Origin: a virus
Taxonomy: Duplodnaviria > Heunggongvirae > Uroviricota > Caudoviricetes
Virus record (IMG/VR): IMGVR_UViG_3300029193_000102
Span: 1 to 33,477 of that record
Reading direction: 5' to 3' (one strand)
DNA length: 33,477 nucleotides
A program made the translations under genes and the position numbers. The first letter of the stretch is position 1, and each line of letters starts with the position of its first letter. Shown here piece after piece: positions 892-29,228 of this stretch. Under the pieces are notes generated by a model, which searched no databases, was not told the DNA's origin, and was given only the letters and a program-made list of their open reading frames with translations.

Positions 892-981
892 GGAGAGATG
901 CCGGAGCGGCTGAACGGACCGGTCTCGAAAACCGGAGTGGGGGCAACTCCACCGGGGGTTCAAATCCCCCTCTCTCCGCCA
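892..981 (+). tRNA. serU: tRNA-Ser, anticodon CGA; prophage integration target
   Basis: 90-nt sequence GGAGAGATGCCGGAGCGGCTGAACGGACCGGTCTCGAAAACC...GGTTCAAATCCCCCTCTCTCCGCCA with long variable arm, T-loop GGTTCAAATCC and 3' CCA; anticodon loop CTCGAAA. Confidence 0.9.
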
Positions 982-5401: not shown

Positions 5402-5459
5402 AAAAAGGGCGGCAGAGCAGTCACGGAGTAAAACTGATACCGCCAAACGTCACCAGAAA
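5402..5459 (-). ncRNA. dicF: DicF small RNA (53 nt at 5407..5459) with 3' stem-loop and U-tract
   Basis: Minus-strand sequence TTTCTGGTGACGTTTGGCGGTATCAGTTTTACTCCGTGACTGCTCTGCCGCCC followed by TTTTT matches recalled DicF; lies upstream of dicB as in the Qin dicB operon. Confidence 0.7.
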
Positions 5460-6089: not shown

Positions 6090-6446
6090 TTACTCGAGAG
6101 GAAATTGGTTATGAGTACAATCAAGTTTTCTTGCCCAGAATGTGGTGGCGAAGTCTTTGACACATCCTTTAAGCCGCAGGGCTCTGACAGTTTCGCGGGA
6201 GCCATCTGCAAAAATTGTGGTCACCTTGTAACTGAAGATGAGTCCTCGCAGTTCGATGATGAAATCGTTGACAATATCTTCGGTGCACTCACCAGAGACT
6301 TTCTGAAGTAAAGGCGCATACCGCTTAGTTACCGCTCTGATAATTCTTACCTGTCCGGCAATGGCGCTGATGTCAATATAAAGCGCCATTGCTGCTTCTT
6401 TGCCGATCCCGGGATGCCTTCCATTCTGATGTTTGACTTCGCCCAC
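6090..6446 (-). CDS. Hypothetical 118-aa protein (GTG start); conflicts with the antisense zinc-ribbon ORF at 6111..6311
   Basis: AGAGGA 7 nt upstream of GTG 6444..6446; same strand as the surrounding early-left operon; no recognisable motif. Confidence 0.3.
   Translation of the reverse strand: MGEVKHQNGRHPGIGKEAAMALYIDISAIAGQVRIIRAVTKRYAPLLQKVSGECTEDIVNDFIIELRGLIFSYKVTTIFADGSRETVRALRLKGCVKDFATTFWARKLDCTHNQFPLE
6111..6311 (+). CDS. Hypothetical 66-aa zinc-ribbon protein (CPECGG...CKNCGH); antisense to the 6090..6446 ORF
   Basis: ATG 6111 with GAGAGGAAA upstream; two CxxC pairs ~22 residues apart; opposite strand to neighbouring genes. Confidence 0.35.
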   Translation: MSTIKFSCPECGGEVFDTSFKPQGSDSFAGAICKNCGHLVTEDESSQFDDEIVDNIFGALTRDFLK

Positions 6447-13206: not shown

Positions 13207-13465
13207 ATACAGCGAACGCCATTGGTTTAGTTGGATATTTACTGTGCCGGACAAAAACGGTTTGCGGGGAAATCTTAGTTAAGTAGAATAACTGCGGGTG
13301 CTTGAGGCTATCTGTCTCAGGCATGAACACCAAAAGGCAGATAGAGAAAAGCCCCAGTTAACATTACGCGTCCGGCAAGACGCTTAACATTAATCTGAGG
13401 CTCAATCTATGAACGGCAAATCTAGGTTAGCCTCTTACGTGCCGAAAGGCAAGGAGAAGCAGGCT

Positions 13466-13621
13466 ATGAAGCAGCAAAAGGCGATGTTAGTCGCCCTGAT
13501 CGTCATCTGTATTACCGTCATTGTGACGGCACTGGTAACGAGGAAAGACCTCTGCGAGGTACGAATCCGAACCGGCCAGACGGAGGTCACTGTCTTCACA
13601 GCTTACGAACCTGAGGAGTAA
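13466..13621 (+). CDS. hok: Hok/Gef-family type I toxin (HokD/RelF-like)
   Basis: 51 aa MKQQKAMLVALIVICITVIVTALVTRKDLCEVRIRTGQTEVTVFTAYEPEE, near-identical to recalled HokD; AAGGAGAAG SD 7 nt upstream. Confidence 0.8.
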   Translation: MKQQKAMLVALIVICITVIVTALVTRKDLCEVRIRTGQTEVTVFTAYEPEE

Positions 13622-15121: not shown

Positions 15122-15487
15122 ATGACCGAACGCATAGAATTTGTTTTGCCTTACCCGCCGACGGTGAACACTTACTGGCGACGCCGTGGCAGCACATATT
15201 TTATCTCGGAGGAGGGAAAGCGTTATCGCCGGGCTGTGGCGCTTATTGTTCGCCAGCAGCGGCTGAAATTAAGCCTGTCCGGAAGGCTGGCGATAAAGGT
15301 GATTGCAGAGCCACCGGATAAGCGTCGTCGCGACCTGGACAACATTCTGAAAGCACCGCTGGATGCGCTGACGCATGCGGGAGTGCTCATTGATGACGAG
15401 CAGTTTGATGAAATCAATATTGTACGTGGTCAGCCAGTATCTGGTGGACGGCTGGGTGTGAAGATTTACAAAATTGAGAGTGAGTGA
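15122..15487 (+). CDS. rusA: Holliday junction resolvase RusA
   Basis: 121 aa; matches recalled RusA motifs LPYPPTVNTYWRRRG and DKRRRDLDNILKAPLDALTHAGVLIDD. Confidence 0.85.
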   Translation: MTERIEFVLPYPPTVNTYWRRRGSTYFISEEGKRYRRAVALIVRQQRLKLSLSGRLAIKVIAEPPDKRRRDLDNILKAPLDALTHAGVLIDDEQFDEINIVRGQPVSGGRLGVKIYKIESE

Positions 15488-16050
15488 GCGTAAATATGAT
15501 ATATCCGGAAATTACAGGCAAAAGCGGCGAGCATTTGCGTCTAAAAACGCTGGAAGCAGTCTGGATCCAGGGGAAATTACGGATGTGGGGGCGGTGGTCG
15601 TATATTGGCGGCGGTAAGACGGGAAATATGTTCAACCAATTACTGACCTCTAAAAAGCTGACAAAAACGGCAATTAACGAGGCGCTCCGGAGGATGAAAA
15701 AAGCTGGTCTGGACAAACCTGAACTTGAGGCTTTTTTGCGGGATATGATCAACGGCAATCAAAAAAGCTGGCTGGCACATTGTACCGATTCAGAGGCGTT
15801 AATAATCGACAGGGTTATTGGTGAAGTCCTGGCAGGCTATCCCGGGCTGCTCAATGTCCTGAGTCAGCGTTATGTGGGGCGGGGGATGACTAAGCGCAAA
15901 ATGGCTGAACTGCTGAATGATGCACACCCGGAATGGAGTTTAAGAACCTGTGAAAGACGCATTGAGCATTGGCTAAAGGTGGCAGAATTTATTTTGTACA
16001 AACCAATGGTTATGGCTTTTGGTATAGAGAAAAAAGTTATTGCTTTTTGA
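15484..16050 (+). CDS. Putative late-gene antiterminator (Q-like), assigned mainly by position
   Basis: 188 aa; lies between rusA and a strong terminator that precedes the late genes; alternative start ATG 15496. Confidence 0.5.
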   Translation: MSVNMIYPEITGKSGEHLRLKTLEAVWIQGKLRMWGRWSYIGGGKTGNMFNQLLTSKKLTKTAINEALRRMKKAGLDKPELEAFLRDMINGNQKSWLAHCTDSEALIIDRVIGEVLAGYPGLLNVLSQRYVGRGMTKRKMAELLNDAHPEWSLRTCERRIEHWLKVAEFILYKPMVMAFGIEKKVIAF

Positions 16051-16127
16051 CGTAAAAACTGCTTCAATTCCGGTACGCTTCGCAAAGCTGTACCACGAGG
16101 CGAATAGCAGACATGGACATTTGAAAG

Positions 16128-16151
16128 AGCCCGCTTTTTGCGGGTTTTTTT
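16128..16151 (+). terminator. Rho-independent terminator downstream of the Q-like gene (tR'-like)
   Basis: CCCGC-TTTTT-GCGGG followed by TTTTTTT. Confidence 0.6.
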
Positions 16152-16274
16152 ATGCCTGAAAAACGGCACAGAACATTAAACGCGCTGGTGGTTGCGAATA
16201 CCGGTCTTTCAGCTTGCTGGCTTTTCCGACAAGAGTTATTGGTATGTTACGTTAACCAGAAAAGGGAAAAAGAC

Positions 16275-16472
16275 ATGCTAAAACAGCAGGATATGACCGA
16301 AACCGCCAGAGTGGTGTTTAATGAGTTAAGCGTCACCGAACCGGCGACAGTCGGGGAGATTGCACAGAATACTTACCTTTCACGCGAACGCTGCCAGTTA
16401 ATACTGACCCAGCTTGTTATGGCGGGTCTGGCAGACTATCAGTTTGGTTGTTACAGACACCTTCAGTCCTGA
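16275..16472 (+). CDS. Small winged-helix-like protein (65 aa)
   Basis: ATG 16275 with AAAGGGAAAAAG upstream; TVGEIAQNTYLSRERCQLILTQLVMAGLADY; stop codon sits inside a terminator hairpin. Confidence 0.4.
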   Translation: MLKQQDMTETARVVFNELSVTEPATVGEIAQNTYLSRERCQLILTQLVMAGLADYQFGCYRHLQS

Positions 16473-16486
16473 AGGCTTTTTTATTT
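16460..16486 (+). terminator. Rho-independent terminator
   Basis: CCTTCAG-TC-CTGAAGG followed by CTTTTTTATTT. Confidence 0.5.
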
Positions 16487-16804
16487 GTGGTAAATTGGCG
16501 GCTGGTGGGTGTGGTGGTTGTTGCTTTCCCGTTGCTGAAAAAGAAAACGCCAGACTGTTAGCCGGGTATCAGTTATCTGGAGAAATTTTTAAATACCTCA
16601 CAATTCAGGCGGTTGACTGTTGTCTGGTTTGCGGGGAGTTTGTTAAAAGAAACTGGCATGGTGAATCCCCCTGTGCGGAGGGGCAATCAGCAACTGGTGT
16701 TTTGTCACCGACCCTTATCCTTTCTGTGCGGGTTCAGGTGCTGATACTGAACTCACCGGGAGGCACCCGGCATCATGTGCATGATGATACAGATACGCGG
16801 CTTT

Positions 16805-16830
16805 AGCCCCTCTCCGGAGGGGCTTTCTTG
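16805..16830 (+). terminator. Rho-independent terminator (plus strand)
   Basis: AGCCCCTC-TCCG-GAGGGGCT followed by TTCTTG. Confidence 0.45.
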
Positions 16831-16835
16831 TGGGC

Positions 16836-16861
16836 AAAAAAAAGCCCGAGTGGGTTCGGGC
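16836..16861 (-). terminator. Rho-independent terminator (minus strand), convergent with the previous one
   Basis: A8 run then GCCCGA-GTGGGT-TCGGGC on the plus strand, i.e. hairpin plus U-tract on the minus strand. Confidence 0.4.
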
Positions 16862-17043
16862 AACAGCATGAGATATACATTTTTATAATCGAATGGATTT
16901 TAACCAGAATTCATAAGGCTGCGCAACTGCGCGGTCTTTTTCGAATTGCGGGCTGTCGTCTCTCTTCTGCCATTGTCCTGTAACTTCCGGACTTCAGCCT
17001 GCTCCTTATCTGACTCACAATATTATCCCGGCCGGGAGGATTC

Positions 17044-19014
17044 ATGGCATTTAAACACTACGATGTGGTCAGGGCGGCATCGCCGTCAGACCTTGCGGAT
17101 GCGCTTGCTCAAAAAATTCGTGAAGGATGGCAACCATACGGCGGGCCGTTTTCTTCGTACACGGATGATGGCGCAGCACTTATTCAGGCGATTGTCGCAG
17201 AAGGTAATGTCACCACACCTGTGGTGGTGAAGCCGTCGGATGGAGAAGGCGCAGTTATCAGCACCACCAGCAACCCGGAGTATTACTTTGTTGTTGCCCT
17301 GGCCGGGCAGTCAAACGGTATGGCGTATGGTGAAGGGCTTCCGCTGCCGGAGACATATGACCGTCCGGACCCGCGTATTAAACAGCTGGCGCGTCGCAGC
17401 ACTGTCACGCCGGGTGGTGCGTCCTGTAACTACAATGACATTATTCCTGCGGACCACTGCCTGCATGATGTTCAGGATTTGAGTAAGTTTTCACACCCGA
17501 AAGCCAGCGCAGCTCAGTATGGATGCGTGGGGCAGGGATTACATATCGCGAAGAAATTGTTGCCGTTTATTCCGGCGAATGCCGGTATTCTTCTGGTTCC
17601 GTGCTGCCGTGGGGGTTCTGCATTTTTGGCGGGCGATGAAGGTACCTTCAGCGAATCCACCGGCGCAAGCGAGACCTCGGCACGCTGGGGTGTAGATAAG
17701 CCACTGTACAAGGACCTGCTTACCCGTACTCAGGCCGCACTGAAGGCCAACCCTAAAAATATTCTGCTTGCAGTGGTCTGGATGCAGGGCGAGTTTGATT
17801 TGAAACAGGGTGCATACGCCACTCAGCCGGGGCTGTTTGATTCCATGGTGGAAAAATATCGTTCTGACCTGTCGGAATTCGGAGGTCAGTGTCTCGGGGG
17901 CTCTCCGTCATCAGTTCCCTGGATTTGTGGCGACACGACCTACTACTGGAAGCAGACTTATTCTTCGCAATACGATGCGGTGTATGGTGCATACAAGACG
18001 AAATCCGCAAAAAAAATCTTCTTTGTGCCGTTTATGACGGATGAAAACGGGCGAAATGTGGGTACCAACGAGCCGTCAGAAGATCCGGATGTTGCGGATA
18101 TTGGGTATTACGGAGCCGGTGGTCGAACGGACGCCAAAACCTGGACGACGGCTGACCGTAAAACGCATTTTGGATCATGGGCACGTCGTGGGATTATTTC
18201 CGACCGTCTGGCAACGGCGATTCTTGTGCATGCCGGGAGAACCGCTGAATTCATTACCGGAAAACAGCCTGATACGGTGAAGCCCACCGGACCTTCCGGT
18301 GAAGGTACGGAGAGAGAGCCGGAAGGTCCGGTCAGTAACCGAACCCTGATGAGTCTGCTGGCGTCCGGCGAAGACCTGGCATCACAGGGCTGGCGCTATT
18401 ATCACAAACCGGCGAGCGGAGACAATGTTAACAAAAACATTGCTGAAGCGGTGGTCAGTGATGCGGGGGCTACGGGAGGTAAGGCCCTGCAACTGAATAA
18501 ACCGGAAAACCACATCTGGTTTCTGGAGCATGATGCAGCCGGGCAGGGGGCAGAGTTGCTGAAGAAAGGAGGACGTGTGAGCGTACGGTTTAAGTTGCCG
18601 GGTTCACTGGTGCCGAATCAGTTTGCCCTGGGCATTTACTGGCAGTTGTCGTCCCTGCCGGAGGGAGTGACGCTGGCAGAGGAAGGCAACGACATGCTGA
18701 TGTCCTTCTTCCTGCAGACGGATGCGACGAACCTGAACGCGATGCACCACAAGAAGCCGAATGCGAAGCTGGAAACGTTCGGGGTCTTTGATAACGGATG
18801 GCACACACTGGCTTTTGAGTTTGCCGGAAACAACAGCATTCAGGTGACGCCGGTACTGGATGAGAAACGGGGGACGCCGTTCACACTGGTGAAATCTCCG
18901 GCATCAGGGGCGGTGGACAAACTGCAACTGACAGGCATATCAAAGGCGGCGACATATACGCTGCTGATTGACAGTGTGAAGGTGGAAGTGAACAACGCGG
19001 ACATCGCGGCATGA
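17044..19014 (+). CDS. nanS: Prophage sialate O-acetylesterase (NanS-p type; DUF1737 N-terminus plus SGNH/SASA esterase domain)
   Basis: 656 aa; GGAGG SD; N-terminus MAFKHYDVVRAASPSDLADALAQKIREGWQPYGG; esterase motif ALAGQSNG; position between Q and lysis genes as in Stx phages. Confidence 0.8.
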   Translation: MAFKHYDVVRAASPSDLADALAQKIREGWQPYGGPFSSYTDDGAALIQAIVAEGNVTTPVVVKPSDGEGAVISTTSNPEYYFVVALAGQSNGMAYGEGLPLPETYDRPDPRIKQLARRSTVTPGGASCNYNDIIPADHCLHDVQDLSKFSHPKASAAQYGCVGQGLHIAKKLLPFIPANAGILLVPCCRGGSAFLAGDEGTFSESTGASETSARWGVDKPLYKDLLTRTQAALKANPKNILLAVVWMQGEFDLKQGAYATQPGLFDSMVEKYRSDLSEFGGQCLGGSPSSVPWICGDTTYYWKQTYSSQYDAVYGAYKTKSAKKIFFVPFMTDENGRNVGTNEPSEDPDVADIGYYGAGGRTDAKTWTTADRKTHFGSWARRGIISDRLATAILVHAGRTAEFITGKQPDTVKPTGPSGEGTEREPEGPVSNRTLMSLLASGEDLASQGWRYYHKPASGDNVNKNIAEAVVSDAGATGGKALQLNKPENHIWFLEHDAAGQGAELLKKGGRVSVRFKLPGSLVPNQFALGIYWQLSSLPEGVTLAEEGNDMLMSFFLQTDATNLNAMHHKKPNAKLETFGVFDNGWHTLAFEFAGNNSIQVTPVLDEKRGTPFTLVKSPASGAVDKLQLTGISKAATYTLLIDSVKVEVNNADIAA

Positions 19015-25342: not shown

Positions 25343-26844
25343 TGGCAATTATTGATGATGTGATAGGCGTGTTTTCCCCCGGCTGGAAAGCAGCCAGACT
25401 GCGTTCAAGGGCGTTAATCATGGCCTATGAGGCGGTGAAACCGACCCGGACACATAAAGCCCGGCGGGAAAATCGCTCTGCTGATCAGCTCAGTAAATAC
25501 GGTGCGGTTTCCCTGCGGGAGCAGGCCCGTTTTCTGGATATCAATCATGACCTGGTGATTGGTGTGTTTGACAAGCTGGAAGAGCGGGTGATTGGTGCCA
25601 GGGGAATTATTGTGGAGCCTCAGCCATTACGAAAAAACGGGGAAATGGCGGCAGAGCTGGCTGCGGATATCCGCCGGTTGTGGGCTGAGTGGTCCGTGAG
25701 TCCGGATGTGACAGGGCAGTATACCCGTCCCGTGCTTGAACGTTTACTGCTGCGGACCTGGCTGCGGGATGGTGAAGTGTTTGCGCAGATGGTCAGTGGT
25801 GCGGGAAACGGTCTGGAACGGACGGCGGGAGTGCCATTCTGGCTTGAGGCGATGGAGCCGGATTTTGTTCCCATGCGCACTGATGAATCCGCCGGACTGA
25901 ATCAGGGGGTTTTTCTTGATGAGTGGGGAAGACCGAAAAAATATCTGGTTTATAAAAATTATCCGGTCAGCGGCCGGCAGAGTGATACGAAAGAAATCGC
26001 TGCCGGAAAAATGATCCACCTGAAGTTCACTCGTCGTCTGCATCAGACGCGAGGCTCATCCATGTTATCGGGGGTGCTGATACGGATCAGTGCCCTTAAG
26101 GAGTATGAGGATGCGGAACTCACTGCGGCGCGTATTGCCGCGGCGCTGGGACTGTATATCCGTAAAGGTGACGGGCAGGACTATGAAGAGCCGGGGATCA
26201 AAGAAACCGACCGGGAAGTCCATATCACACCGGGTATTATTTATGACGATTTGCGCAAGGGCGAGGATATCGGCATGGTCAAATCAGACCGTCCCAATCC
26301 CAACCTTGAAACTTTCCGCAACGGCCAGTTGCGTGCAGTGGCAGCGGGCAGTCGTCTGAGTTTTTCCAGTGCGGCGCGTAACTATAACGGCACCTACAGT
26401 GCCCAGCGGCAGGAGCTGGTCGAGTCCACGGATGGTTACCTGATCCTGCAGGACTGTTTTATTGGCGCGGTAACCCGTCCGGTGTACCGGACATGGCTGA
26501 ATATGGTGGTTGCGGCAGGTCTGCTGAAAATTCCGGCGGATGTGGAGATGAAAACGCTATATAACGCGACGTATTCCGGTCCGGTGATGCCGTGGATCGA
26601 CCCGGTTAAGGAAGCTGAAGCCTGGAGAATTCAGATCCGGGGTGGTGCAGCGACAGAATCTGACTGGGTGCGTGCCGGCGGGCGCAATCCGGATGAGGTC
26701 AAACGTCGCCGCAAGGCTGAAATTGATGAAAACAGCAGACTGGGGCTGGTCTTTGATACTGACCCCGTCAACGACAAAGGAGGCAACAGTGCCGGAACTG
26801 AACAACAGCGTCAGCAGGCCACCGACAGCCAGCATGAAGAATAA
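25342..26844 (+). CDS. B: Portal protein (lambda gpB family)
   Basis: 500 aa, placed after W and before the protease as in lambda. Confidence 0.85.
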   Translation: MAIIDDVIGVFSPGWKAARLRSRALIMAYEAVKPTRTHKARRENRSADQLSKYGAVSLREQARFLDINHDLVIGVFDKLEERVIGARGIIVEPQPLRKNGEMAAELAADIRRLWAEWSVSPDVTGQYTRPVLERLLLRTWLRDGEVFAQMVSGAGNGLERTAGVPFWLEAMEPDFVPMRTDESAGLNQGVFLDEWGRPKKYLVYKNYPVSGRQSDTKEIAAGKMIHLKFTRRLHQTRGSSMLSGVLIRISALKEYEDAELTAARIAAALGLYIRKGDGQDYEEPGIKETDREVHITPGIIYDDLRKGEDIGMVKSDRPNPNLETFRNGQLRAVAAGSRLSFSSAARNYNGTYSAQRQELVESTDGYLILQDCFIGAVTRPVYRTWLNMVVAAGLLKIPADVEMKTLYNATYSGPVMPWIDPVKEAEAWRIQIRGGAATESDWVRAGGRNPDEVKRRRKAEIDENSRLGLVFDTDPVNDKGGNSAGTEQQRQQATDSQHEE

Positions 26845-28813
26845 ATCCTGGTTCAGGATGCAGGCGGGTGGTCAGGGTGAGGCGGATATTTATATTTATG
26901 ACGAGATTGGTTTCTGGGGAGTTACCGCGAAGCAGTTTGTCAGCGATATGAATGCCCTGGGTGATATCACCCACATTAATCTCCACATCAACTCACCGGG
27001 TGGCGATGTCTTTGAAGGCATCGCCATTTTTAATGCCCTGAAAAATCACGGTGCGGCCATTACCGTGTATGTGGATGGCGTTGCCGCCTCGATGGCATCC
27101 CTGATTGCGATGGCCGGTGACACGGTCATTATGCCGGAAAATGCCTTCATGATGATCCATAAACCCTGGGGGATCAGCGGTGGTGATGCGGAGAAAATGC
27201 GCACTTATGCCGAACGTCTGGACAAACTTGAGTCGGTTATGGTGCCGGTATATGCGCAGAAAACCGGAAAAACTACCGATGAAATTGCCGCCATGCTGGC
27301 GGATGAGACCTGGATGTCCGGTGCCGAGTGTCTGGCACACGGATTTGCAGACCAGGTGACGCCAGCCGTTAAGGCAATGGCATGTATTCAGTCAAAACGT
27401 ACAGAGGAATTTAAAAAGATGCCGGAATCCATCCGAAATATGATCACGCAGCCATACAACAGTGCCCCGCGTGATACCACAGTGACAATCCCTGCACCGG
27501 CGGTAACAGAACCATCACCGGTACCGGCAGTGTCTGATGAGGCGACCATTCGCGCCCGCGTTATGGCAGAACAGAAAGCCCGCATGTCAGGCATTAACGA
27601 TCTGTTTGCCATGTTCGGCGGTCGCTATCAGACGCTTCAGGCACAGTGCGTGGCTGATCCTGACTGTTCGCTGGAAATGGCCCGTGAACGTCTGCTGAAT
27701 GAAATGGGCAAGGAGTCCTCGCCGACCAACAAAAATACACCGGCTCATATTTATGCCGGAAACGGCAATTTTGTGGGGGACGGGATCCGCCAGGCGATGC
27801 TGGCCCGTGCCGGATTTGAAAATGTCGAGAAGGATAACGCCTATAACGGGATGACCCTGCGTGAATGGGCTCGCATGTCACTGACGGAGCGCGGTATTGG
27901 GGTGGCCAGTTATAACCCCATGCAGATGGTCGGGCTGGCGCTGACGCACAGCACCTCTGATTTTGGCAATATTCTGCTGGATGTGTCGAACAAGGGGCTG
28001 ATCCAGGGCTGGGAGGAATCAGAAGAAACCTTCCAGAAGTGGACCCGTAAGGGACGCCTGTCAGACTTCAAAACAGCGTATCGCGTGGGGATGGGCGGTT
28101 TTGGTTCTCTGCGCCAGGTTCGTGAGGGGGCGGAGTATAAATACATCACCACCTCAGATCGCAAGGAGACCATTGCACTGGCCACTTACGGGGAGATTTT
28201 CTCCATCACCCGCCAGGCCATTATCAATGATGATCTGAATATGCTGGTGGACGTGCCGATGAAGATGGGGCGTGCGGCGAAGGCAACGATTGGTGACCTG
28301 GTTTACAAGGTGCTGACGGATAACCCGAAACTGTCAGACGGTAAGGCGCTGTTCCATGCCGATCACAAAAATATTGCCACCGGTGGGATTTCCGTTTCCG
28401 GACTGGATGCGGCCCGTCAGATGATGCGCCTGCAGAAAGAAGGCGATCGCGCCCTGAATATCCGTCCGGCCTTTATGCTGGTACCGGTGGCACTGGAGAC
28501 GGTGGCGAACCAGACCATCAAATCGGCCAGTGTGAAAGGGGCGGATGCAAACGCCGGTGTCATTAACCCCATCCAGAACTTTGCTGAGGTGATTGCAGAA
28601 GCGCGTCTTGATGCGGCAGATCCGAAAACCTGGTATCTGGCGGCGGCACAGGGCACTGACACCATTGAAGTGGCCTGGCTGGATGGTGTGGACACTCCAT
28701 ACATTGATCAGCAGGAAGGTTTCACCACTGACGGCATTGCCACAAAAATCCGTATTGATGCCGGAGTGGCACCACTTGACTGGCGCGGGCTGGTGCGTTC
28801 GTCGGTGGCCTGA
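26834..28813 (+). CDS. Prohead protease (ClpP/S49-like) fused to a putative major capsid domain
   Basis: ~660 aa from ATG 26834 (track ORF begins 26642 inside the portal gene); protease region INSPGGDVFEGIAIFNAL...ASMASLIAMAGD; C-terminal ~330 aa of capsid-like character; no separate major capsid gene follows. Confidence 0.7.
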   Translation: MKNKSWFRMQAGGQGEADIYIYDEIGFWGVTAKQFVSDMNALGDITHINLHINSPGGDVFEGIAIFNALKNHGAAITVYVDGVAASMASLIAMAGDTVIMPENAFMMIHKPWGISGGDAEKMRTYAERLDKLESVMVPVYAQKTGKTTDEIAAMLADETWMSGAECLAHGFADQVTPAVKAMACIQSKRTEEFKKMPESIRNMITQPYNSAPRDTTVTIPAPAVTEPSPVPAVSDEATIRARVMAEQKARMSGINDLFAMFGGRYQTLQAQCVADPDCSLEMARERLLNEMGKESSPTNKNTPAHIYAGNGNFVGDGIRQAMLARAGFENVEKDNAYNGMTLREWARMSLTERGIGVASYNPMQMVGLALTHSTSDFGNILLDVSNKGLIQGWEESEETFQKWTRKGRLSDFKTAYRVGMGGFGSLRQVREGAEYKYITTSDRKETIALATYGEIFSITRQAIINDDLNMLVDVPMKMGRAAKATIGDLVYKVLTDNPKLSDGKALFHADHKNIATGGISVSGLDAARQMMRLQKEGDRALNIRPAFMLVPVALETVANQTIKSASVKGADANAGVINPIQNFAEVIAEARLDAADPKTWYLAAAQGTDTIEVAWLDGVDTPYIDQQEGFTTDGIATKIRIDAGVAPLDWRGLVRSSVA

Positions 28814-28835: not shown

Positions 28836-28854
28836 GCCCGAAAGGGCTTTTTTT
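28836..28854 (+). terminator. Terminator-like hairpin plus T7 after the capsid gene
   Basis: GCCC-GAAA-GGGC followed by TTTTTTT; preceded by palindrome TGATAACCGAGTTATCA (28811..28827). Confidence 0.4.
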
Positions 28855-28901
28855 ATGCCTGAAAAACAGCCCCACAGGGGGCTGTCCGGAGAAACAGCAT
28901 T

Positions 28902-29228
28902 ATGGCGAAAAATTTTGTACAGGACGGTACCACCATTGAACTGGTGAATGCCGGAGATCAGACCATCCTGAGCGGTGCTGCGGTGGTGGTCGGCAGTATG
29001 GTGGCCGTGGCCATTACCGATATTCCTGCCGGTGATGCCGGTGACGGTTTTGCCGAAGGCGTGTTCCTTCTGCCCAAACAGTCTGCTGACGACATTCAGT
29101 CCGGCGCGGTGGTTTATCTGAAGGACGGGGTTGTGCAGCTGGCTGCAGAGGGTGCGGTGGCCGCGGGGGTAGCCTGGGAAAATGCTCCTGCAAACAGCGC
29201 CACTGTGGCGGTAAAAATCAATGTCTGA
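28902..29228 (+). CDS. Putative head decoration protein
   Basis: 108 aa Gly/Ala/Val-rich protein directly after the capsid gene; lambda D-equivalent position. Confidence 0.5.
   Translation: MAKNFVQDGTTIELVNAGDQTILSGAAVVVGSMVAVAITDIPAGDAGDGFAEGVFLLPKQSADDIQSGAVVYLKDGVVQLAAEGAVAAGVAWENAPANSATVAVKINV

What the first reader, a model, noticed from the sequence alone, without database searches (positions are those of the whole stretch)
16145..16164. 20-nt exact repeat shared by two terminator-proximal sites 12.7 kb apart
TTTTTTTATGCCTGAAAAAC occurs at 16145..16164 (T-tract of the tR'-like terminator running into an ATG) and again at 28848..28867 (T-tract of the terminator after the capsid gene). 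The next three bases also match at two of three positions. In both places a hairpin precedes it, and at 28867..28884 a second hairpin (CAGCCCC-ACA-GGGGCTG) follows. A chance 20-mer match within 33 kb is very unlikely, so this may be a conserved regulatory element or a module-boundary sequence used in mosaic recombination.
Basis: seen in the sequence. Interest (0 to 1): 0.5.

Follow-up and report, generated by a model that had tools for sequence, protein, structure and literature searches.

The report
Shared tail of two phage terminators
The 20-base repeat is real: it is the T-run plus the next 13 bases of two transcription terminators in a common E. coli lambdoid prophage. It is a terminator "tail" that recurs in enterobacterial phages, not a paired regulatory or recombination device.

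Summary
TTTTTTTATGCCTGAAAAAC occurs exactly twice, at 16145-16164 and 28848-28867 on the + strand, extending to 24/26 identity, and was matched in 0 of 100 shuffles.

- **Copy A:** it follows the hairpin CCCGC-TTTTT-GCGGG just after the Q antiterminator gene, so it sits at a tR'-type terminator.
- **Copy B:** it follows GCCC-GAAA-GGGC after the protease/scaffold/capsid gene. It is the linker to a second hairpin in front of the head-decoration gene.
- **Conservation of B:** the B architecture is kept in all 24 distinct relatives found through the downstream protein, down to about 60% amino-acid identity. The motif is T5-8 + AT[GA][CT]CTGAAA, with compensatory changes in hairpin 2.
- **Variability of A:** at locus A the same 13 bases vary. 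They are exact in only 4 of 80 relatives.
- **No pairing of A and B:** in 7 of 7 phages or genomes where both loci were fetched independently of the motif, B has this sequence and A does not.
- **Mosaic joint:** A lies at a true mosaic joint where many Q/hairpin modules meet one downstream region. B does not, and no A×B recombinant was seen.
- **The ATG:** it is not a conserved start codon.

The tail does recur after at least 10 unrelated phage hairpins, against 2 of 13 for composition-matched controls. It is absent from E. coli K-12 terminators and from a Pseudomonas homologue. Its own function is unproven.

The parts
15484..16050 (+). Q-type late antiterminator gene (188 aa, DUF1133 / Phage_antitermQ)
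   Evidence: Pfam DUF1133 at 5.6e-106 and Phage_antitermQ at 8e-8. PHROG 753 'anti-termination protein Q-like' at 1.6e-80.
16130..16151 (+). Terminator A (tR'-type): stem CCCGC 16130-34, loop TTTTT, stem GCGGG 16140-44, T7 tract 16145-51
   Evidence: Sequence. RNA fold with extended A/U pairing. Own stem + T-run scan. It lies about 80 nt after the Q stop. Homology to Stx2 phages begins at 16140.
16145..16164 (+). Copy A of the 20-mer (T7 + ATGCCTGAAAAAC)
   Evidence: It is one allele of a variable segment.
16184..16191 (+). Chi site GCTGGTGG, 20 nt downstream of copy A
   Evidence: It is kept in most alleles of the locus.
16275..16472 (+). 65-aa ORF (phrog_331; 'TrmB family regulator' in some records), with an AGGGA Shine-Dalgarno. 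This is the real first ORF after terminator A.
   Evidence: The in-frame extension back to ATG 16152 is not conserved.
26642..28813 (+). ClpP protease / scaffold / major capsid fusion gene
   Evidence: Pfam CLP_protease and Phage_capsid_4. PHROG 133.
28836..28854 (+). Terminator B: hairpin 1 GCCC-GAAA-GGGC (28836-47) plus T7 tract (28848-54)
   Evidence: The stem is invariant with 10 GCCC/GGGC loop variants in relatives. The homologous element in phage mEp043 is annotated 'rho-independent terminator'.
28848..28867 (+). Copy B of the 20-mer. It is the T-tract plus the linker between hairpin 1 and hairpin 2.
   Evidence: The linker T5-8 + AT[GA][CT]CTGAAA is present in 24 of 24 distinct relatives. 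Pairwise identity is 0.94 in the linker, against 0.56 in the 25 nt upstream of hairpin 1.
28866..28885 (+). Hairpin 2, ACAGCCCC-ACAG-GGGGCTGT, directly before the Shine-Dalgarno sequence
   Evidence: Relatives show compensatory stem variants (CAGCCCC/GGGGCTG, CGGCCCC/GGGGCCG, CGGCACC/GGTGCCG) and G·U wobbles that fit only the + strand RNA. On the - strand it is followed by T5.
28888..29228 (+). GGAG Shine-Dalgarno (28888-91) and head decoration/cement gene (28902-29228)
   Evidence: Pfam Phage_cement_2 at 5e-19. PHROG 122 'head decoration'.

Best explanation
The two copies are the U-tract plus the first 13 downstream bases of two Rho-independent terminators in the Q-controlled late operon of a lambdoid E. 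coli prophage.

**Copy A.** It ends the short leader transcript that starts after the Q gene. This is a tR'-type terminator, read through only by Q-modified polymerase.

**Copy B.** It lies in a conserved intercistronic element between the capsid and decoration genes:
- a short hairpin plus U7 (a weak terminator and a 3' end protector for the capsid message);
- a 10-13 nt single-stranded linker;
- a second hairpin abutting the decoration gene's ribosome-binding site.

**Why the two copies are identical.** The linker is under purifying selection at B. At A the same stretch is only the current allele of a drifting segment next to a mosaic joint. The 20-base identity therefore reflects membership of both terminators in one sequence family of 'terminator tails' (T6-8 + AT[GA][CT]CTGAAA). 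This family recurs in temperate enterobacterial phages, spread by descent or short-patch recombination. One C/T transition then made this A allele exact. The two copies do not act as a pair.

**Shown:** the anatomy, the conservation patterns, the lack of A/B correlation, and the mosaic joint at A.

**Inferred:** that the hairpins terminate or stabilise RNA, and whatever the linker itself does.
For: - **Terminator anatomy and position:**
- **Independent annotation:** the mEp043 homologue of B is annotated as a rho-independent terminator.
- **B element conserved without ascertainment on the motif:** 160 loci found through the decoration protein give 24 distinct intergenic sequences, and all carry T5+ AT[GA][CT]CTGAAA. 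Linker identity is 0.94 against 0.56 for the upstream spacer.
- **Hairpin 2 structure:** it shows compensatory and G·U variants.
- **A locus variable:** mismatches to the 13-mer are 0 in 4, 1 in 2, 2 in 2, 3 in 7, 4 in 29 (the mode) and 5 or more in 34 of 78 scored A loci (2 of the 80 could not be scored). Sibling alleles ATGCCCGAAAAACGGCACAG differ by one base.
- **A and B alleles uncorrelated within phages:** 7 of 7 pairs.
- **A is a mosaic joint:**
- **Family recurrence:** the 18-mer gives at least 118 IMG/VR loci, all after hairpins, in at least 10 unrelated contexts. Three composition-matched controls give 5, 5 and 3 hits, of which 2 follow a hairpin.
- **The ATACC variant:** about 45 of 66 contexts follow a hairpin (41 by the energy cut-off, plus 4 just under it), including A-, B- and C-type loci.
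- **Lambda:** its tR' carries T6 + ATATCTGCACAAC.
Against: - No transcript 3' or 5' ends are available, so termination or processing at either site is not shown.
- Hairpin 1 at B has only 4 base pairs. The consensus scanner rejects B for that, and it also misses A.
- The near-perfect conservation of the linker at B, and its recurrence after unrelated hairpins, points to a sequence-specific role that this explanation leaves open.
- Descent, gene conversion and convergence cannot be told apart with 13 bases.
Confidence: 0.62

Rival explanations
1. The 13-base tail is itself a sequence-specific functional element that works at both sites. It could act in the DNA held in the polymerase's downstream channel while it pauses on the U-tract, tuning termination. 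Or it could act in read-through RNA as a single-stranded recognition or cleavage site (for example for RNase E) or as a ribosome standby site between protective hairpins.
For: - The linker is invariant in 24 of 24 B relatives, while neighbouring non-coding bases are only 56% identical.
- The tail recurs after at least 10 (ATGCC) and about 45 (ATACC) unrelated phage hairpins, often 15-25 nt before a Shine-Dalgarno sequence plus ATG, against 2 of 13 hairpin-associated hits in controls.
- The same G/A polymorphism occurs at loci A, B and C.
- G·U pairs in hairpin 2 point to function in the sense RNA.
Against: - At locus A the same positions vary freely.
- An unbiased 300-kb K-12 sample has 45 terminator-like sites, none followed by ATGCC.
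- In metagenomes the GC variant is no more common than the 15 other dinucleotide variants.
- The homologous capsid-decoration spacer of Pseudomonas phage F10 lacks both the linker and hairpin 2.
- No factor is known, and no paper holds the sequence.
Confidence: 0.25
2. The 20-mer is a linker or boundary sequence used for homologous recombination that swaps modules. This is the first reader's idea, in the sense of Susskind-Botstein linkers or the PeSL cassettes of T4-type phages.
For: - Copy A sits exactly where homology between phages with different Q modules begins.
- A conserved Chi site lies 20 nt downstream, oriented to stimulate exchange toward the joint (the Chi polarity is from established RecBCD knowledge).
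- The two direct repeats bracket the lysis-terminase-portal-capsid block.
Against: - B is not a breakpoint.
- A and B alleles differ in most relatives, so the pair cannot be a standing recombination substrate.
- There are no A-left/B-right or B-left/A-right hybrids among 119 loci.
- The first ~35 nt after the A T-tract are the most diverged part of that locus, not the most conserved.
- 20 bp is at or below the length needed for efficient RecA or Red exchange (established knowledge).
Confidence: 0.08
3. The match is pure coincidence between two unrelated terminators.
For: - Seven of the 20 bases are a T-run.
- Positions +1 to +3 after T-runs are biased (A/G, T, G/T). A position weight matrix from other terminators raises the probability of the 13-mer 16- to 160-fold over uniform.
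- Hits in bacterial chromosomes fit chance plus this bias.
Against: - 0 of 100 shuffles gave a match.
- Even with the weight matrix the 13-mer has probability about 10^-5.6 per terminator, and only 3 such sites exist on this strand.
- The same tail recurs at many phage terminators but not in the controls.
Confidence: 0.05

Closest known systems
Lambdoid tR' terminator and the short pR'-tR' leader RNAs (lambda 6S RNA; StxS of Stx phages, PMC7547250; IsrK downstream of AntQ in Gifsy-1, PMC4825925)
   Same: - Copy A is the first hairpin + T7 after a Q-family gene and precedes the late genes.
- Lambda tR' has a related tail, T6 + ATATCTGCACAAC.
- In Stx phages the homologous downstream region follows Q in the same way.
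   Different: - The Q gene and hairpin here are a different module from 933W/Sakai Stx phages; homology starts only at 16140.
- No Rfam family reaches threshold. isrK scores 18 bits against a cutoff of 50, driven by the generic terminator.
- The pR' promoter and qut site were not identified.
Rho-independent terminator or stabiliser hairpin after the major capsid gene. It is annotated as such in phage mEp043 (NC_019706). T7 Tphi after gene 10 is the classic case (from memory).
   Same: - Copy B is hairpin + T7 directly after the most highly expressed structural gene.
- The mEp043 homologue GCCCGTAAGGGC-T7 is annotated 'rho-independent terminator'.
   Different: - Here the terminator is part of a fixed two-hairpin unit with a conserved linker and a second, covarying hairpin at the next gene's ribosome-binding site.
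- That unit is not annotated or described in the records or papers searched.
Module-boundary or linker sequences of lambdoid phages and PeSL mobile regulatory cassettes of T4-type phages (recalled from memory: Clark et al. 2001; Arbiol et al. 2010)
   Same: It is a short intergenic sequence with a stem-loop, repeated at several places in phage genomes. One copy (A) lies at a mosaic joint.
   Different: - No promoter component was found.
- B is not a joint.
- No recombinant or circular products are detectable.
- The copies are not maintained as a pair.
Intercistronic stem-loop / endonuclease sites that set differential mRNA stability in operons (papBA, puf; from memory)
   Same: An A/U-rich single-stranded linker flanked by a 3' hairpin for the upstream message and a 5' hairpin for the downstream message.
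   Different: No cleavage data exist, and the linker does not obviously match the RN|WUU RNase E preference. This is an analogy only.

Membership tests
Rho-independent (intrinsic) terminator | G+C-rich hairpin immediately followed by a run of at least 5-7 U, on the transcribed strand | tested here: met
   - A: a 5-bp all-G/C stem, extendable by A/U pairs, plus T7.
- B: a 4-bp G/C stem with a GAAA loop plus T7. This is short, and the consensus scanner does not list it.
Rho-independent (intrinsic) terminator | RNA 3' ends or termination actually occur at the U-tract | not testable with these tools
   No transcriptome or in vitro data are available. This needs Term-seq or single-round transcription.
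Lambdoid tR' (Q-dependent late terminator) | First terminator downstream of the Q gene, upstream of the lysis and morphogenesis genes, all on one strand | tested here: met
   The order on the + strand is Q at 15484-16050, terminator at 16130-16151, then nanS-like, terminase, portal and capsid genes.
Lambdoid tR' (Q-dependent late terminator) | A constitutive pR' promoter with a Q-binding/pause (qut) site between Q and the terminator | tested here: inconclusive
   The sigma-70 scan found no + strand promoter in 15400-17100. Only weak hexamers can be seen by eye around 16041-16069.
Recombination linker / boundary sequence (PeSL-like cassette) | Homology breakpoints between related phages coincide with the repeat at each copy | tested here: not met
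   This is met at A but not at B, where both flanks stay homologous.
Recombination linker / boundary sequence (PeSL-like cassette) | Products of exchange between copies exist (hybrids, deletions, circles) | tested here: not met
   No A/B hybrid flanks were found among 119 motif-bearing loci. A and B alleles are uncorrelated.
Lambda-type nut site (boxB hairpin with GAAAA loop) | A 5-bp stem closing a GNRNA pentaloop, with boxA nearby | tested here: not met
   GCCTGAAAAAC resembles half of lambda boxB (from memory), but no perfect stem forms at either copy. A scan for boxB- and boxA-like sites found none at these positions.
Protein-coding start (ATG CCT GAA AAA C) | Conserved open frame, conserved start codon and a ribosome-binding site | tested here: not met
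   - The frame is open in 34 of 80 A loci, with stops or 1-nt indels in the rest.
- Many B relatives have ATA.
- A T-run, not a Shine-Dalgarno sequence, precedes the ATG.
Any curated RNA family (Rfam 15) | Score at or above the family's gathering threshold | tested here: not met
   There is no hit at either site at gathering thresholds. Only sub-threshold, terminator-driven matches occur at A, and none at B.

The most novel reading that the evidence does not exclude
T6-8 + AT[GA][CT]CTGAAA is a previously undescribed, sequence-specific 'terminator-distal box' of temperate enterobacterial phages and satellites. A host or phage factor, or the polymerase's downstream-DNA channel, would read it to set termination strength, or to set processing and translation of read-through late mRNA. 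It would have been spread among unrelated hairpins by selection rather than by descent.
Probability: 0.2. Interest if true: 0.65.

Novelty: new variant of a known kind. Interest (0 to 1): 0.35.

Why it matters
As it stands, the finding is mostly ordinary: two intrinsic terminators, one at a well-known kind of mosaic joint.

Two things go beyond routine annotation.

- **A fixed intercistronic unit.** The capsid-decoration spacer of a large group of enterobacterial siphophages is a fixed two-hairpin unit. Its linker is more conserved than the surrounding non-coding DNA and than the proteins' synonymous sites. This gives a concrete, testable handle on how late-operon stoichiometry or mRNA stability is set.
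- **A recurring downstream sequence.** The same linker sequence follows many unrelated phage terminators. Canonical terminator models assign no sequence requirement downstream of the U-tract. A real requirement would therefore be of general interest for terminator design and prediction.

Tried and rejected
- **Universal bacterial motif: rejected.**
  - The 18-mer follows hairpins at rpsI, hns, efp, rpsT, trpS and other terminators in many Gammaproteobacteria: 66 of 119 hits.
  - It usually occurs once per genome, and a weight matrix of terminator flanks predicts tens of chance hits in 596 Gb.
  - A metagenome scan with the internal control TTTTTATNNCTGAAAAAC shows GC no commoner than the other dinucleotides, with a 14% hairpin baseline.
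  - An unbiased 300-kb K-12 sample has no ATGCC tails.
- **Mobile element with inverted ends:** no inverted copy of the 13-mer lies within ±1.5 kb of any hit.
- **ORF start:** rejected.
- **nut/boxB:** rejected.
- **Promoter:** there are no matching -10/-35 spacings (plus inspection).
- **Reverse-strand terminator at B:** hairpin 2 + T5 exists in this window, but the T-run shrinks to 3 in relatives with GAAAC or GAAATC. It is not the conserved function.
- **U-tract/A-tract mini-hairpin (UUUUUUUA-UGCC-UGAAAAA) and the nested fold from RNAalifold:** no compensatory support (0 of 12 pairs). The A/T against G/C co-variation at +1/+6 in A alleles involves too few lineages to count.
- **Concerted evolution of A and B:** rejected.
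- **IsrK/StxS homology of the leader:** only sub-threshold, terminator-driven Rfam scores.
- **Literature:** no paper contains the motif or its variants.
- **Distant decoration-gene relatives:** the attempt to reach them returned mostly close relatives because only the best 80 loci are kept.

Full report
**1. Observation**

TTTTTTTATGCCTGAAAAAC occurs exactly at 16145-16164 and 28848-28867, both on the + strand. No further matches appear even with three mismatches. None of 100 dinucleotide-preserving shuffles gave a match. The repeat finder extends the pair to 24/26 identity, 16142-16167 against 28845-28870.

**2. Setting**

The window is a lambdoid E. coli prophage. The segment around site A is found at 80% coverage or more in 818 of 5426 complete E. 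coli genomes.

Site A:
- ORF 15484-16050 is a Q-family antiterminator (DUF1133/Phage_antitermQ; PHROG 'Q-like').
- About 80 nt later comes CCCGC-TTTTT-GCGGG + T7 (16130-16151), the first terminator of the rightward late operon.
- It is followed by a 65-aa ORF (16275-16472), STnc100, an antisense AsxR, a nanS-like esterase, terminase, portal and the capsid gene.

Site B:
- It lies 22 nt after the stop codon of the ClpP-protease/scaffold/capsid fusion gene (26642-28813).
- The order is GCCC-GAAA-GGGC + T7 (28836-28854), the 13-mer, a second hairpin ACAGCCCC-ACAG-GGGGCTGT (28866-28885), GGAG, and the head-decoration gene (28902-29228; Phage_cement_2, PHROG 122).

With my stem + T-run criteria, these two sites and one look-alike inside a coding region are the only such sites on the + strand. 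The consensus scanner lists neither A nor B.

**3. Is the pair a conserved feature? No.**

I fetched relatives without using the motif.

Locus B:
- The decoration protein retrieved 160 loci, giving 24 distinct intergenic sequences.
- All 24 carry T5-8 + AT[GA][CT]CTGAAA between hairpin 1 and hairpin 2, down to about 60% protein identity.
- Pairwise identity is 0.94 for the 10-nt linker and 0.88 for hairpin 1. It is 0.56 for the 25 nt just upstream.

Adding motif-selected loci, 54 B-type elements show:
- Hairpin 1 keeps the GCCC/GGGC stem with 10 different loops.
- Hairpin 2 shows compensatory stems (CAGCCCC/GGGGCTG, CGGCCCC/GGGGCCG, CGGCACC/GGTGCCG). Its G·U wobbles fit only the sense RNA.

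Locus A:
- The 65-aa ORF retrieved 80 loci, giving 42 distinct upstream sequences.
- The region after the tR' T-run is homologous in all but variable. Alleles include ATGCCTGAAAAAC, ATGCCCGAAAAAC, ATGACTGAAATC, ATGGCTGAAATC, ATGTCCGAAAATC, GTGTCCGTAATAT and GTGCCCGCAAAGT.
- It is exact in only 4 of 80 loci, and the modal distance is 4 mismatches of 13.

Within phages:
- In four contigs and three genomes that hold both loci, B is always ATGCCTGAAAAAC. A is GTGTCCG.., GTGCCCG.., ATGACTG.. or ATGTCCG...
- Among the motif-selected loci, one contig (IMGVR_UViG_2718218131_000003) carries the exact 18-mer twice, as this window does.
- The window's A allele differs from sibling alleles (ATGCCCGAAAAACGGCACAG) by a single C/T transition.

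The exact 20-mer is therefore a lineage-specific coincidence of alleles, resting on a deeper resemblance of about 10/13 between the two loci.

**4. Mosaic joint**

- Megablast homology to Stx2 phages, phiP27 and others begins exactly at window position 16140, inside the terminator.
- At least eight unrelated hairpin/Q modules are joined to the same downstream sequence. Site A is a real module boundary, as expected for Q, which must travel with its own promoter and qut site.
- A Chi site (16184-16191) lies 20 nt downstream and is kept in most alleles.
- Site B is not a boundary. A 1-kb query across it is 98-99% identical end to end in 12 phage records, and more distant relatives diverge on both sides.
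- No locus among 119 combines an A-type left flank with a B-type right flank or the reverse.

**5. The tail as a family**

Every hit directly follows a stable hairpin. The contexts are:
- A-type, with several hairpins;
- B-type;
- a third family beside AlpA-like and P4-type integrase-like ORFs, judged from the translations (type C);
- seven further unrelated sites, for example between terminase and portal genes, after a capsid-like ORF, and after a repressor-like ORF (all by eye from the translations; no domain search was run).

Three composition-matched controls with the same T5 prefix gave 5, 5 and 3 hits. Only two of those follow a hairpin.

It again includes A-, B- and C-type loci, and many sites 15-25 nt before a Shine-Dalgarno sequence and ATG. 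Lambda's own tR' is T6-ATATCTGCACAAC.

The family is not universal:
- In a metagenome scan of TTTTTATNNCTGAAAAAC, the GC variant is 6 of 120 hits, no more than the others. Only 14% of all hits follow a hairpin.
- Six arbitrary 50-kb pieces of E. coli K-12 hold 45 terminator-like sites, none followed by ATGCC. Only rpsI (T7-ATAGCTAAAATC) is clearly related.
- The homologous spacer of Pseudomonas phage F10 has one hairpin and no such linker.
- The many hits at housekeeping terminators in other Gammaproteobacteria fit chance in 596 Gb, once the general flank bias (A/G, T, G/T at +1 to +3) is counted.

**6. Readings rejected**

- **The ATG is not a start.** The extended frame is open in 34 of 80 A loci. 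At B the ORF is out of frame and the ATG is ATA in many relatives. No Shine-Dalgarno sequence precedes it.
- **No nut-like boxB/boxA**.
- **No Rfam family.** Sub-threshold isrK, Trp-leader and OrzO matches at A are generic terminator matches.
- **No inverted copy** that would suggest a mobile element.
- **The nested fold** proposed by RNAalifold has no covariation support.
- **The reverse-strand terminator at B** is not conserved.

**7. Mechanism, as far as it can be committed**

Both sites are intrinsic terminators of the Q-controlled late operon.

- **Site A.** It stops the constitutive leader transcript in the lysogen. This is the arrangement that yields StxS in Stx phages (PMC7547250) and IsrK next to AntQ in Gifsy-1 (PMC4825925).
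- **Site B.** It is a short terminator/stabiliser hairpin after the most abundant structural gene, coupled to a second hairpin at the next gene's ribosome-binding site. The mEp043 homologue is annotated as a rho-independent terminator.
- **The 20-mer.** It is the U-tract plus what lies immediately beyond. At B this is a selected single-stranded linker. At A it is the present state of a drifting joint.
- **The linker's own job.** It might tune pausing and termination through the downstream duplex. It might be an endonuclease site between two protective hairpins, or a ribosome standby site. This cannot be decided here, and I give a sequence-specific role about one chance in four.

**8. Verdict**

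This is a real repeat, correctly located. It is explained as two members of a phage terminator-tail family. It is not a paired regulatory or recombination device, and it is of modest interest. The conserved two-hairpin capsid-decoration element and the recurrence of its linker at unrelated phage terminators are the parts worth an experiment.

Noticed in passing
window 2193, 2882, 7761, 14161, 16184, 16501, 20760, 21398, 23318, 28243 (+); 12748, 14694, 14746, 17264 (-): There are fourteen Chi sites (GCTGGTGG) in 33.5 kb, ten of them on the late-gene strand. About one would be expected at random. The one at 16184-16191 sits 20 nt from the Q-module joint and is kept in most alleles of that locus.
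   Followed up: partly
window 892-978, 5407-5458(-), 13296-13471, 16627-16835, 16839-16891(-): Rfam gathering-level hits are tRNA, DicF, sok antitoxin RNA, STnc100 and AsxR (anti-stx2 sRNA), although the window has no stx genes. STnc100 and AsxR end in face-to-face terminators at 16805-16861.
   Followed up: no
window 27001-27046: A hairpin + T5 + AATGCCCTGAAAAATC lies inside the ClpP-protease domain coding sequence and resembles the motif with one extra C. It encodes conserved ClpP residues, so I take it as chance.
   Followed up: partly
window 16130-16151 and 28836-28854: The promoter/terminator consensus scanner reports neither of the two terminators, although A fits its stated criteria: 5 G/C pairs, a 5-nt loop and T7.
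   Followed up: no
L238 (Pseudoalteromonas shioyasakiensis), about 420 nt upstream of the match: A tRNA gene is followed by two partial copies of its 3' end at ~119-nt spacing. Each copy is followed by a hairpin + T7-8 + ATGCCTGAAAA. This looks like repeated integration scars or tandem duplication.
   Followed up: no
L266, L303, L315 and similar loci, ~45 nt upstream of the tR' hairpin: Some alleles of locus A carry a second TTTTATGCCTGACG just before the tR' hairpin, as if two terminator tails were in tandem.
   Followed up: no
L735 (E. coli N3 rpsI-sspA), L736 (K-12), L196 (Yersinia alsatica): The rpsI terminator has different hairpins in E. coli and Yersinia but related tails: T7-ATGGCTAAAATC or ATAGCTAAAATC against T7-ATGCCTGAAAAAC. 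The rest of the spacer is not alignable.
   Followed up: partly
window 16275-16472: The 65-aa ORF matches positions 35-98 of the 111-position phrog_331 profile, so many database members are annotated from upstream starts. Comparative data show that the upstream extension is not conserved.
   Followed up: yes
L734 (lambda) 6100-6140: Lambda has a hairpin + T7 + ACGGGA + T7 directly before the E (capsid) start, between D and E. The gene order is the reverse of that in this window.
   Followed up: no
L010 and relatives (type C); E. coli chromosomes: A third family carrying the exact tail lies about 150 nt from a divergently oriented AlpA-like ORF that is followed by a P4-type integrase-like ORF, both judged by eye from the translations. 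Segments matching this region occur in 875 of 5426 E. coli genomes, though only 4 hold most of the 700-nt query. Alleles carry ATGCC, ATACC or ATTCC.
   Followed up: partly
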